Below, one piece after another: positions 17,501 through 27,646 of a DNA stretch of 64,000 nucleotides. Each line of letters opens with the position of its first letter. Within the stretch, counting starts at the first letter, position 1. The position numbers are program-made. The stretch is from Octopus vulgaris (taxonomy: Eukaryota), in NCBI GenBank assembly GCA_951406725.2, contig OX597839.1, positions 12,338,001 through 12,402,000 on the forward strand, in the 5' to 3' direction.

Positions 17501-20500
17501 AAATGTAGACAAAGCCACTTCCGGTACCTATACCGAAGGATCGCCGAAAATAAGTACAGGCCGTGGTTTGTTTAACTAAACTTTTCAAGGTAGTGCTCCA
17601 GCATGACCGCAATCCAATTGTCGAAAAAAAAAGTACAATAATAGTTAATTATTAGAATATTGCATATTCGAAGTGTACGTTCACTTACCTCCCTTGTTAA
17701 ATTACTTCCCTTAGATCTATGTATATTTAGCAGTAACTGCTTATTTTTATGAATATTTAGCAGTGAATGCTTATTTCAGCAAATATTTAACAGGCAAATG
17801 AATATTTTCAAGTAAAACCACGCAGCAGACCCAGTTAAATATTAATATATATTTTAGGATAGATATATGCGAATGGTGTTGAATAAAGATGTTATATTTC
17901 TGCTTTAGTATAACCATAAGAGAGATCAGTGTCCTATGTATATACCATGGCTTATAGGTATATAAGCTGTGAGATTGCAGTGTAATGTTGGGTTCAGGTG
18001 TAAGCTCGTTTAAGGGATAACATCCAGGTACTTTGGTTGCCTCGTTCATCCTTGGGAAGGTCTGAGACAAAGGCTGTATTAATAACGTCCCAGCCGGACG
18101 TCCCTGTGAGAGGGGAGTGGTTCACCAGACACAACGGTTTCCTCAAGCTAACATGTTTAAACGTCAAATGACAGCCACGTTGTGGTTGGATGACCTCTGT
18201 GTTAGCTTGTTGGTTGAAAGTGGTCCATGGCCAGCGCGTAGAGCAGCTTGATAAACGAGGTGGGTGCAGAGTTCGATTCTTCGTTCCAGCCCCATAACTC
18301 AATTCAGACTATTCTTCATCTGAGCCTTTTTTTTAAAATTGTTTTTTTAAAAATTATTTTATTTAATTATGTTTTCTCACGGCCATGTAAAATAGTTCTA
18401 ACAAGACGTGGCGGTTGTCCAATTGCTGATCTGGTACTTATTTTGTCGACCTTGAAAGATGAAAGGCGAAGTCGACCTCTGTGACATTTCAACTTAGAAC
18501 ATAAAGAGCCGAGAAAAATGCTAAGCATTTTGTCTGACACAGTAGCGATTCTTCTAGCTCACCTCCCAATAGCCATGTAAAATAATGCATATAGAACCTA
18601 GGCAAATCTCAGGGTACTTACTGTAATATATGTGTGAGATCTCAACCATCAAGTAGTGTTTGGTTGTGGGATGTATGTATGTCATTGTTCAGTTTTATTT
18701 CAAGATTTCTTGCCAATAGAGAAAGCGCCAGTTTCTCACTTAGATCCAAGGCTACTTCATTGGAATTTCAACATCAACAACAGGGTATTTTTTCTTGTAT
18801 GTAAGATATTGATGGGAGATGGAAAGAGCATTTTGATGAGTTGCTCAATAGACCCACAGAAGTTTGCCTTTCTTTTCATGATAATATACCTGAGAAACCA
18901 ACAAAACATCTTTTAGAAGAGATTCCAAACCTCTGAAATAAAAGCAGTAATCAGAGAATTGAACAATGGAAAGGCCCTTGGTATGGATGGACAAAGCACA
19001 GAGATATATAAATAGGGTGGTGATCATCTCTGTACAATGTCGACAGATGTGATTCAGAGGGTTTGGAATAGTAAAGAGGTTCCTATGGATTGGCATGATG
19101 CAACTATGGAGTTACTATATAAATCGAAAGGTGAAAAGGATGTCCGTGATAATTATTGTGGCATCTGTCTGTTAGCTATTGCTGAAAAGGTCCTTTGTAG
19201 GGCAATGCTACACTGACTGCTTCTGCACATTGCTGATGAGGTTCTACAAGAATGGCACTGTGGTTTTAGCGATAGTAGAAGTACTATGGATATGATATTT
19301 TCAGCTAGACAGTTGCAAGAGAAGTGCATCGAACAGGATATGGACTTATATCAGGTTTTCATTGATCTAACGAAAGTGTTTGATTCTGTCAATAGAGTTG
19401 CACTTTAGGAGATCCTGAAAAATTTGTGAGAATGCTTAGACAGTTTCATGACAAGATAAAAGTGAGAGTTAATGTTGGAGGTGCCTTATCAGATCCAATT
19501 TCTGTTGAAAATGGTGTAAAACAAGGTGATATTCCTGCTCCTACATTGTTTGTTATTTGAAGATTGCACTGAAGGGTCTATATAAGATAAAGGACAACAG
19601 GAAAACTGTTCAATCTCAAAAGACTCTATACCAAAACGAAAGTTCTGTATTCTCACCTTGTTGAGTTCCTGCATGCAAATGATTGTTTTGTTTGTTCCTT
19701 CTCGAGCCATGCCTGGCTCATAAGGGCCAGTTTCCCGGTTTCCTTGGCGTATAGGTTCCCCACCTGGACGGGACACCAGTCCGTCGCAGGTGAGCTGCAA
19801 GATGCAGGAGGAAAGAGTGAGAGAAAGTTGTGGCGAAAGAGTCAGCAGAAGTTCACCATCACCTTCTGCTGGAGCTGCATGGAGCTTAGGGGTTTCGCTC
19901 ATAAACATACACATTGCCTGGTCTGAGATTCGAACCTGCAATCCTTCGACCGCAAGTCCGCTGCTCTAACCACTAGGCCATGTGCCTCCACAAATGATAG
20001 TGACCTGTTTGCACATTCCCACAAAGATATGCAGCACATGCTGAATGCGATTTCTGCAGCATATGCAGTATTGGGTGTAACAATCAATCTGAAAACAAAA
20101 AAAAATGTTCAAAGGTACCAACCTGCTCTCTCCATGATATATGTGGGACCTTTTATAACTGAGAATGGTCACAGGTTGGAGACTGTGTCTAGATTAATTT
20201 ATTTAGGAATTACCTTGAGCACTGCTGGCCTGCATGATGAAATTTCATACAGAATCAGCAGGGCTAGTAGTGCTTTTGGTATGCTTAATAGGTATCTGTG
20301 GACACGACATAATATATTTCCACGGGTACATAATGCATGCGTCCTGCTATCTTTGCTATATGGGAGTGAGGCAGGGGTTATTTACTGTAGACATGTAAAG
20401 CAAATGGAACAATACCATCAATACTGTCTGAGAAAAATTTGGGGGATAAACTGGAAAATGGCCATTAGTAATGTGGAGGTGTTTGAGAGGAGTGGCAGTA

Positions 20501-26500: not shown

Positions 26501-27646
26501 CTTGATAAACGAGGTGGGTGCAGAGTTCGATTCTTCGCTCCAGCCCCATAACTCAATTCAGACTATTCTTCATCTGGGCCCTTTTTTTTATTAAAGCCTG
26601 TACAATATATATCCTATTTATGCACATTTTCAATCTATAGAATCCGAGATTTTCCTCGATTAATCTGTGCGACCAAGTCGTGCTGATTCCCGAAAAGCAA
26701 AATATTCCAAGGCGGAACATGGGTGTTTTCCAGAAAGTTCTTCAATAAAGATGGCGACGACGTCGTACCATTCCTCGCGCAAAATACATGGAAAATTGGT
26801 TTAAAGCTTCGGTTTATGTTTTCCCTCGTAACTTGGGGGAAAATGGGGTTTTCTCAACGAAATTTTATAGAAATACCTTTCAAAGGACATACATTACAAT
26901 TTGTGGTGAAAATCTTTTCGGGGAGAGGACTTCGGAAAATTCACAAGACTTGAGCTTTCCCCTCGTAACTTTTAGGAAAATGGGGTTTCTTTTTTCAAAG
27001 AAATTTTATAGAAATACCTTTCAAACGGCATACATTACGATTATAAAGAAATCTGTGGGAAAAATCTTTTCTAAGAGGGTGAGGAGAAGACTTCGAAAAA
27101 TTCACAAGATCCGAGCTTTTTCCCTCGTAACTTTTAGAAAAGTGGTTTTTGTTTTTTCAATGAAATTTTGTAGAAATACCTTTTAAACGGCATACATTAC
27201 GATTATAAAGAAATTTCAGGGGAAAATCTTTTCCAAGGAGGTGCAGAGAGGACCTCGGAAAATTCACAAGATCCGAATTTTTCCATGTTATATTCCGAAA
27301 TCACATTGAATTTTCTACAGATACCCTAGCGTAGTTCCACTACACCACGTAGTATTTTTTCTACCCACTTTCAATAATTCTTAATGTTTTGGCTTCATTT
27401 TTTTTTCATGTTATCTTCAATTATTTTTACGCTTTTTTAACCCTTCCGTCGTTATTCTCACTCACTTGTTATTACTTCCCCCCTCTCTCTATATATATAT
27501 TATATACACACACGTATATACTCACACATATACACACACTCATACATACATACATATATATACACACACATACATACATATATAAATATACACACACACA
27601 TATATACATACATACACACACACATATATATATGTATATATATATA

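What the first reader, a model, noticed from the sequence alone, without database searches (positions are those of the whole stretch)
17813..26589. Two intact tandem RNase P RNA genes, 8254 bp apart
Seen: two complete RNase P RNA cassettes (upstream block, TATA, about 338-nt RNA, T8) in the same orientation. Established: the nuclear RNase P RNA is usually a single-copy Pol III gene in animals and is often missing from non-model annotations. Seen: the 177-bp proximal promoter is identical and the RNAs differ at four positions, yet similarity drops sharply further upstream, vanishes right after the terminator, and old transposon relics lie between the copies. Inference: an old duplication kept homogeneous by gene conversion and/or purifying selection, with both copies likely active.
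Basis: partly seen in the sequence, partly recalled or inferred. Interest (0 to 1): 0.85.

Follow-up and report, generated by a model that had tools for sequence, protein, structure and literature searches.

The report
Two tandem RNase P RNA genes
The window carries two complete, almost identical genes for the RNA subunit of the tRNA-processing enzyme RNase P, 8.3 kb apart, each with its own promoter and terminator; this is a real but fairly ordinary duplicated housekeeping RNA gene, apparently kept uniform by gene conversion.

Summary
Rfam RF00009 (nuclear RNase P RNA) matches full length at 17994-18323 (116.2 bits) and 26248-26577 (110.8 bits), both on the + strand and 8254 bp apart.

Each copy has a TATATAAG box 24 nt upstream of a GGG start. 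Each has a T8 terminator, no internal T4 run and the same 55 consensus base pairs.

The copies are identical over 282 nt (17813-18094). The RNAs differ by three transitions and one 1-nt indel, all compatible with the structure.

Homology continues upstream for about 140 nt at only 87% identity with many indels. It then stops, and it also stops right after T8. That step (0 of 177 against 14 of 108 mismatches, Fisher p = 7e-7) argues for interlocus gene conversion over an older duplication. It argues against a recent copy, a retrocopy or an assembly artefact.

The spacer holds a degraded LINE and SINE-like repeats.

Expression of both copies, the identity of the PSE (proximal sequence element) and the cephalopod origin could not be tested.

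RNase P RNA duplications, including tandem ones, are already described in animals (PMC2996960, PMC4287351). Two copies that both carry a promoter are the less common case. Interest is modest.

The parts
17671..17812 (+). Copy A, distal upstream block. It is homologous to 25957-26066 of copy B but diverged (87% over aligned columns, many indels). It contains a 30-bp tandem repeat (17718-17793) that copy B lacks.
17813..17989 (+). Copy A, proximal promoter: 177 bp identical to copy B. It holds TATATAAG at 17959-17966, which ends 24 nt before the presumed +1. ACCATAA at 17913-17919 is a possible PSE core (a lead from recall only, not tested).
   Evidence: TATA distance compared with the 21-27 nt quoted in PMC4287351
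17990..18326 (+). Copy A, RNase P RNA (337 nt before the U tail). The Rfam match covers 17994-18323. The ends are inferred from P1 pairing (G17990..U17994 with A18323..U18327) and from the TATA distance.
18327..18334 (+). Copy A, T8 Pol III terminator. Back-up T7 at 18342-18348, within a 15-bp tandem repeat at 18327-18366.
18418..18566 (-). SINE-like interspersed repeat 83 nt after the copy A terminator (7 other matches in the window).
18805..21144 (+). Degraded non-LTR retrotransposon, read in several frames with stops between the pieces. Pieces: RT core fragment 19217-19408; RT tail 19927-20565; C2H2 zinc-finger tail 20857-21144.
   Evidence: RVT_1 E 4.8e-4, below Pfam's cut-off; Atlas 0.92, RVT_1 clusters; 65% identity to P0001 residues 1-168; 57% identity to P0001 residues 293-368
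22216..22640 (+). Two tandem 186-bp SINE-like units. The same family occurs at 4006-4237, 5301-5968, 47813-47967 and 54782-54936.
   Evidence: (D16-D20)
23416..24332 (.). Interspersed repeat with up to 12 matches elsewhere in the window. One arm is inverted against 61212-61500 (85%).
   Evidence: (I1)
25957..26066 (+). Copy B, distal upstream block (diverged homologue of 17671-17812).
26067..26243 (+). Copy B, proximal promoter, identical to copy A. TATATAAG at 26213-26220.
26244..26581 (+). Copy B, RNase P RNA (338 nt before the U tail). The Rfam match covers 26248-26577.
26582..26589 (+). Copy B, T8 Pol III terminator.

Best explanation
These are two genuine genes for the nuclear RNase P RNA, the catalytic RNA that removes 5' leaders from pre-tRNAs. 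They lie head to tail, 8254 bp apart.

Each is a self-contained external-promoter (type 3-like) RNA polymerase III unit. It has an upstream promoter region with a TATA box about 24-31 nt before a G start, an RNA of about 337-338 nt, and a T8 terminator.

The pair arose from an older DNA-level duplication that included at least 320 bp of upstream DNA. Since then, interlocus gene conversion has repeatedly copied the core (promoter plus RNA, about 520 bp) from one copy onto the other, so the core stays at 99-100% identity while the edge of the duplicated segment has drifted to 87% with indels. Transposons have filled or replaced the DNA in between.

Shown: the identity of the RNA, its intactness, the promoter and terminator landmarks, and the step in divergence. 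Inferred: Pol III transcription, the exact RNA ends, conversion as the homogenising process, and activity of both copies.
For: RNA identity: RF00009 matches full length at 116.2 and 110.8 bits against a gathering score of 28.

Conserved regions: the CR-I block GGGAAGGUCUGAGA and the CR-V block CAAUUCAGACUA match the model consensus, and the P4 pairs are all canonical. An AG-N4-AU stretch aligns to the consensus AGUgCAAU.

Structure: of 55 consensus pairs, the same 4 are non-canonical in both copies.

The four differences are structurally harmless. Two lie in hairpin loops, one turns the closing U-A of P1 into U-G, and the extra C turns a terminal G-U into G-C.

Pol III landmarks: there are no T4 runs inside either RNA and a T8 follows directly. 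The TATA box ends 24 nt before the GGG. Manivannan et al. describe a TATA 21-27 nt upstream plus a poly-T for Pol III-type RNase P RNA genes, including those of two molluscs (PMC4287351, passages).

Conversion: 0 of 282 sites differ in 17813-18094, against 14 of 108 plus 34 gapped nt immediately upstream. P(0 of 177) is 2e-11 at that rate, and Fisher p = 7e-7.

Not an artefact or retrocopy: the flanks share only non-colinear interspersed repeats, the window has no N, and the promoter is duplicated together with the RNA.
Against: No expression, Pol III occupancy or orthologue data could be obtained, so dual activity and the defining signature of concerted evolution (paralogues more alike than orthologues) are untested.

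No PSE could be defined, because the window has no U6, 7SK or MRP gene to compare.

The structural neutrality of the three substitutions is uninformative: 289 of 330 possible transitions keep every consensus pair, so three in a row is expected 67% of the time.

Because the copies are nearly identical, the intactness of one is not independent evidence for the other.

The complete loss of similarity directly after T8, with no gradient like the one upstream, is not explained by conversion alone.

The upstream block is AT-rich and carries a tandem repeat, so its mutation rate may be above average. That would exaggerate the step.
Confidence: 0.8

Rival explanations
1. Only one copy is a working gene. 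The other is a silent or dispensable duplicate that looks intact only because conversion keeps overwriting it.
For: [quoted passage not shown] The mouse extra copies are near-identical but truncated (PMC3001073, passages). Near-identity means the intactness of the second copy is not independent evidence.
Against: Here both copies carry the identical 177-bp promoter, TATA box and T8, and neither has an internal T4 that would truncate the transcript. Nothing in the sequence separates a live copy from a dead one. The CM scores are 116.2 and 110.8 bits.
Confidence: 0.2
2. A single recent duplication of a cassette of about 0.65 kb, without gene conversion. The poor upstream similarity reflects a hypermutable AT-rich, slippage-prone stretch.
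For: The core is 98.2% identical over 562 bp. The upstream block carries a 30-bp tandem repeat in copy A only, and several differences there are indels. No homology exists beyond the cassette on either side.
Against: 14 substitutions in 108 aligned sites next to 0 in 282 would need a rate difference far above tenfold across a single boundary at 17812/17813. Degraded LINE and SINE-like elements fill the spacer and abut the cassettes. No target-site duplication or mobile-element end is visible at the cassette edges (by eye).
Confidence: 0.08
3. Assembly artefact: one gene represented twice, through a haplotype or false tandem duplication.
For: Bcheck attributed at least 16 cases of highly similar extra predictions to assembly errors (PMC2996960, passages).
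Against: False duplications copy the flanks as well. Here similarity ends within about 320 bp upstream and directly after T8, the 7.6-kb spacer is not homologous to either outer flank except for dispersed repeats, and the window has no gap. The distal blocks differ by 13% plus indels, far more than between-allele variation in the core.
Confidence: 0.02

Closest known systems
Pol III-type RNase P RNA genes of non-insect, non-crustacean animals, including two molluscs (snail, oyster) described by Manivannan et al. 2015 (PMC4287351)
   Same: An independent gene with an upstream TATA box 21-27 nt before the RNA and a poly-T stretch at the 3' end. The same landmarks are found here on both copies.
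   Different: The passages I read do not report two promoter-bearing copies for those species. Their PSE alignment is in a supplementary figure (S2B) that I could not see, so the PSE here remains unassigned.
Tandem RNase P RNA pair of Tribolium castaneum; two copies in Heliconius melpomene; two or more in crustaceans (PMC4287351)
   Same: Local duplication of the RNase P RNA gene with both copies retained. In Tribolium the two are in tandem.
   Different: Those copies lack Pol III signals and sit in introns of Pol II genes. The two copies here each carry their own external promoter and terminator.
Vertebrate RPPH1 plus extra copies (human chr14 gene and chr4 copy; mouse copies; zebrafish and stickleback duplicates) as summarised in PMC2996960 and PMC3001073
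   Same: DNA-level duplicates of a type 3 Pol III RNase P RNA gene.
   Different: In those cases only one copy had a recognisable promoter, or the extra copies terminate early. Here promoter, body and terminator are intact and identical or nearly so in both.
Concerted evolution of multicopy small-RNA genes (snRNA and 5S gene families; my own knowledge, not tested here)
   Same: Paralogue cores kept near-identical while the flanks diverge. The similarity boundary hugs the functional unit.
   Different: Only two copies are visible, and without orthologues the defining paralogue-versus-orthologue comparison is missing.

Membership tests
Nuclear RNase P RNA (Rfam RF00009) | Covariance-model score above the curated gathering score, over the full model | tested here: met
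   116.2 and 110.8 bits against 28; model 1-301 of 301 for both
Nuclear RNase P RNA (Rfam RF00009) | CR-I and CR-V sequences forming the P4 helix | tested here: met
   GGGAAGGUCUGAGA and CAAUUCAGACUA align to the consensus. All P4 pairs are canonical in both copies.
Nuclear RNase P RNA (Rfam RF00009) | RNase P rather than its sister RNase MRP RNA | tested here: met
   RF00009 is the match kept within clan CL00002. An AG-N4-AU stretch aligns to the consensus AGUgCAAU (the name CR-IV is recalled). The P8-type loop reads CAGCC / CAGCU, not the GARAR that PMC4287351 uses to verify MRP RNA.
Nuclear RNase P RNA (Rfam RF00009) | Assembles with Pop/Rpp proteins and cleaves pre-tRNA | not testable with these tools
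   Needs biochemistry.
External-promoter (type 3) Pol III gene | TATA box at a fixed short distance upstream of the RNA | tested here: met
   TATATAA ends 24 nt before G17990 / G26244. The range 21-27 nt is quoted in PMC4287351.
External-promoter (type 3) Pol III gene | Proximal sequence element shared with U6/7SK genes of the same species | tested here: inconclusive
   No U6, 7SK or MRP gene in the window, and no genome of the species at hand. ACCATAA at 17913-17919 resembles the vertebrate PSE core only from recall.
External-promoter (type 3) Pol III gene | Run of four or more T directly after the RNA and none inside it | tested here: met
   T8 at 18327-18334 and 26582-26589; no T4 inside either RNA.
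Paralogues under interlocus gene conversion | A tract of much higher identity than adjacent DNA that is homologous through the same duplication | tested here: met
   0 of 282 against 14 of 108 mismatches plus 34 gapped nt. Fisher p = 7e-7 for the promoter alone.
Paralogues under interlocus gene conversion | Paralogues within a species more alike than orthologues between species | not testable with these tools
Processed (retro)pseudogene of a small RNA | Copy starts at the RNA 5' end, lacks the upstream promoter, and is often truncated or flanked by target-site duplications | tested here: not met
   About 320 bp of upstream DNA is duplicated with the RNA. Both copies are full length.
False duplication in an assembly | Near-identical flanks, usually next to a gap | tested here: not met
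   No N in the window. The flanks are unrelated apart from dispersed repeats.

The most novel reading that the evidence does not exclude
Both genes are transcribed, and the pair has been maintained by conversion over a long evolutionary span in its lineage. The animal would then make two RNase P RNA variants, differing in the P1 end and two loops, from two independent Pol III promoters. That would be a doubled dosage, or a differentially regulated supply, of an RNA that most animals studied so far make from one promoter-bearing gene.
Probability: 0.2. Interest if true: 0.5.

Novelty: new member of a known kind. Interest (0 to 1): 0.3.

Why it matters
RNase P RNA is essential and is often missing from annotations of non-model genomes, so these two loci are worth annotating correctly.

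In the literature I could read, duplicated Pol III-type RNase P RNA genes had a promoter on only one copy (PMC2996960). A pair with two identical promoters is therefore a clean small example of concerted evolution acting on a whole Pol III transcription unit.

The four diagnostic differences make expression of each copy directly measurable from total-RNA reads.

It does not change what is known about RNase P or Pol III.

Tried and rejected
Third copy or degenerate relic: none at gathering level, at E<=1 in 15000-31000, or by blastn with word size 7. The repeat of copy B's downstream flank at 28168-28393 starts after the terminator and carries no RNase P sequence.

Larger segmental duplication: blastn of 9000-17812 against 18340-26066, and of 18336-26000 against 26590-36000, gave only non-colinear dispersed repeats (10 and 4 hits).

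Selection test on the RNA differences: no statistical power.

Pfam on spacer and window ORFs; 8 ORFs, 0 significant; 10 ORFs, only two sub-threshold hits; 5 ORFs, 1 weak RVT_1 hit. No host-gene exon was recognised, so I cannot say whether the locus is intergenic or intronic.

Organism: the Atlas search and the protein search (1 hit among 1084 candidates, unnamed) gave no usable taxon. The SINE-like repeat and the 37% G+C remind me of octopus genomes, but that is recall only.

Literature. 'RNase P RNA' + 'cephalopod' gave 1 paper, irrelevant. 'RNaseP' + 'octopus' gave 1 paper, where 'rnasep1' is a project name. The broader search listed no paper containing RNaseP_nuc among the 15 shown. One search listed nothing on conversion between RNase P RNA genes among its 15 shown. 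So, within those searches, I found no description of this pair in print.

Supplements are closed. Fig. S2B of PMC4287351 (mollusc promoter alignment) could bear on the PSE assignment.

The bacterial promoter/terminator scan was not used because it does not apply.
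Full report
**Observation**

A scan of the whole window with Rfam 15 at gathering thresholds gives three matches. Two are to RF00009 (nuclear RNase P RNA): 17994-18323 (116.2 bits, E 1.1e-32) and 26248-26577 (110.8 bits, E 5.9e-31). Both are on the + strand and both cover model positions 1-301 of 301. The third is a tRNA at 56313-56384.

The copies are exactly 8254 bp apart. A more permissive scan of 15000-31000 and a blastn of the cassette against the window found no third copy or relic. 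The window has no N.

**Anatomy of each copy**
- TATATAAG lies at 17959-17966 / 26213-26220.
- A GGG lies at 17990-17992 / 26244-26246, 24 nt after the TATATAA.
- The RNA body runs to C18326 / C26581 (337 and 338 nt).
- T8 lies at 18327-18334 / 26582-26589.
- Neither RNA contains a run of four T, so a Pol III transcript would not end early. In the mouse extra copies described in PMC3001073 it does (passages).

Manivannan et al. define Pol III-type RNase P RNA genes by a PSE (proximal sequence element), a TATA box 21-27 nt upstream and a 3' poly-T. They found these in two molluscs among other animals (PMC4287351, passages). TATA and poly-T are met here. The PSE cannot be assigned because no U6, 7SK or MRP gene is available for comparison.

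The abstract of PMC6797745 (search listing) states that the ancestral eukaryotic RNase P RNA is a Pol III transcript made with mature termini. That fits ends defined by the start site and the terminator.

**RNA integrity**

I mapped the Rfam consensus structure onto the sequence. Of 55 consensus pairs, the same four are non-canonical in both copies, and the P4 pseudoknot pairs are all canonical. The conserved blocks GGGAAGGUCUGAGA and CAAUUCAGACUA are present, and an AG-N4-AU stretch aligns with the consensus AGUgCAAU.

**Differences between the copies**
- The copies are identical from 17813 to 18094 (282 nt).
- 18095 C/T lies in the loop of a hairpin.
- 18284 T/C lies in the loop of the last hairpin.
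- 18323 A/G turns the closing U-A of P1 into U-G.
- One extra C in copy B turns a terminal G-U of the extended P1 into G-C.

All four differences are compatible with the fold. This has no statistical weight, however. 289 of 330 possible transitions keep every consensus pair, so three harmless substitutions are expected 67% of the time.

**Extent and history of the duplication**

Upstream of 17813 the copies remain alignable for about 140 nt (A 17671-17811, B 25957-26065), with 94 matches, 14 mismatches and 34 gapped nt. The local score is 76, against a shuffle mean of 20.6 and maximum of 30. Part of the gapping is a 30-bp tandem repeat present only in copy A.

Further upstream, and directly after T8, there is no homology. 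The downstream score is 20, against a shuffle mean of 18.8. Comparison of roughly 8-9 kb of flank on each side found only non-colinear dispersed repeats.

The step from 13% mismatch to 0 of 177 in the promoter is highly significant (Fisher p = 7e-7). The chance of no difference is 4e-6 even if only 90 promoter sites were free to vary. Selection on a PSE and a TATA box cannot freeze every spacer nucleotide, so the core has been homogenised by interlocus gene conversion after an older duplication.

The absence of differences in the first 282 nt, against four in the remaining 232, is only marginal (p = 0.04). It may reflect a more recent conversion tract.

A retrocopy is excluded because the promoter is duplicated. 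A false assembly duplication is very unlikely because the flanks are unrelated and there is no gap.

The abrupt 3' edge is not explained. In copy B a locally repeated element begins 8 nt after T8 (26598-26797, 83% identical to 28168-28393). In copy A a SINE-like element begins 83 nt after T8. Insertions may therefore have displaced the original flanks.

**Spacer**

2358 of 7621 nt of the spacer match elsewhere in the window. The + strand of 18805-21144 is a degraded non-LTR retrotransposon read in several frames:
- a reverse-transcriptase fragment at 19217-19408 (RVT_1, E 4.8e-4, below Pfam's cut-off);
- an RT tail at 19927-20565, 65% identical to residues 1-168 of P0001, with Atlas neighbours carrying RVT_1 (score 0.92);
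- a C2H2 zinc-finger tail at 20857-21144, 57% identical to residues 293-368 of P0001.

SINE-like units lie at 18418-18566 and 22216-22640, and another repeat lies at 23416-24332.

**Comparison with what is known**

Duplicated RNase P RNA genes are not rare. Bcheck made multiple predictions in 36 metazoan genomes. It judged at least 16 to be assembly errors and 20 to be true duplications, but found a promoter-like structure for only one copy in each (PMC2996960, passages).

Jarrous and Gopalan list human, mouse and zebrafish duplicates (PMC3001073, passages). Tribolium has two copies in tandem, Heliconius has two, and crustaceans have two or more. All of these are of the intronic Pol II type (PMC4287351, passages).

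The present pair differs in that both copies carry a complete and identical external promoter and terminator. My searches found nothing on RNase P RNA genes in cephalopods.

**What stayed open**
- Expression of each copy.
- The PSE.
- Whether the locus is intergenic.
- Synteny and copy number in relatives. No eukaryotic genome collection was open, and paper supplements were closed.

**Verdict**

This is a new member of a known kind, of modest interest.

Noticed in passing
56313-56384 (-): A tRNA-Met (CAU) gene resembling an initiator tRNA (Rfam tRNA 47.4 bits; ARAGORN agrees). A T7 run lies 14 nt downstream, followed directly by what looks like the head of a tRNA-derived SINE. It may be a live Pol III gene or a decaying one.
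   Followed up: partly
about 29042-29248: A near-perfect palindrome with arms of about 100 nt and a short AT loop. It gives sub-threshold matches on both strands to many unrelated miRNA families (best is MIR1023, 69 bits against a gathering score of 90), so it is probably a foldback or MITE-like element rather than a miRNA gene.
   Followed up: partly
17384-17542: A second palindromic element, just upstream of the copy A homology block. Perfect 22-nt inverted arms lie at 17389-17410 and 17517-17538, with weak hairpin-type Rfam matches on both strands.
   Followed up: no
4006-4237, 5301-5968, 18418-18566, 22216-22640, 47813-47967, 54782-54936: A SINE-like family with at least eight copies in the window, including a 186-bp unit duplicated in tandem at 22268-22638. 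From recall it resembles octopus SINEs; this was not tested.
   Followed up: partly
26598-26797 and 28168-28393; 26922-27284: The DNA starting 8 nt after the copy B terminator is repeated 1.6 kb downstream at 83% identity. It is followed by 2.3 copies of a 162-bp tandem repeat.
   Followed up: partly
18327-18366: In copy A the terminator region is itself a 15-bp tandem repeat (2.7 copies). This gives back-up T runs (T7 at 18342-18348) that copy B lacks.
   Followed up: no
30875-31309 (+); 45230-45538 (+); 9642-9989 (-); 11388-11738 (-): Further transposon relics. There is a weak DDE_Tnp_IS1595 match (E 7.9e-4, below cut-off) at 30875-31309. By eye only, there is a mariner-type transposase tail at 45230-45538 and LINE RT tails at 9642-9989 and 11388-11738. 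No host-gene exon was recognised among the 23 ORFs scanned with Pfam.
   Followed up: partly
whole window, e.g. 229-482, 1038-2150, 10072-10625, 35178-35760: Very dense AT/GT/ATGT-type microsatellites and cryptic simple repeats. Window G+C is 37%, against 49-50% in the two RNase P RNAs.
   Followed up: no
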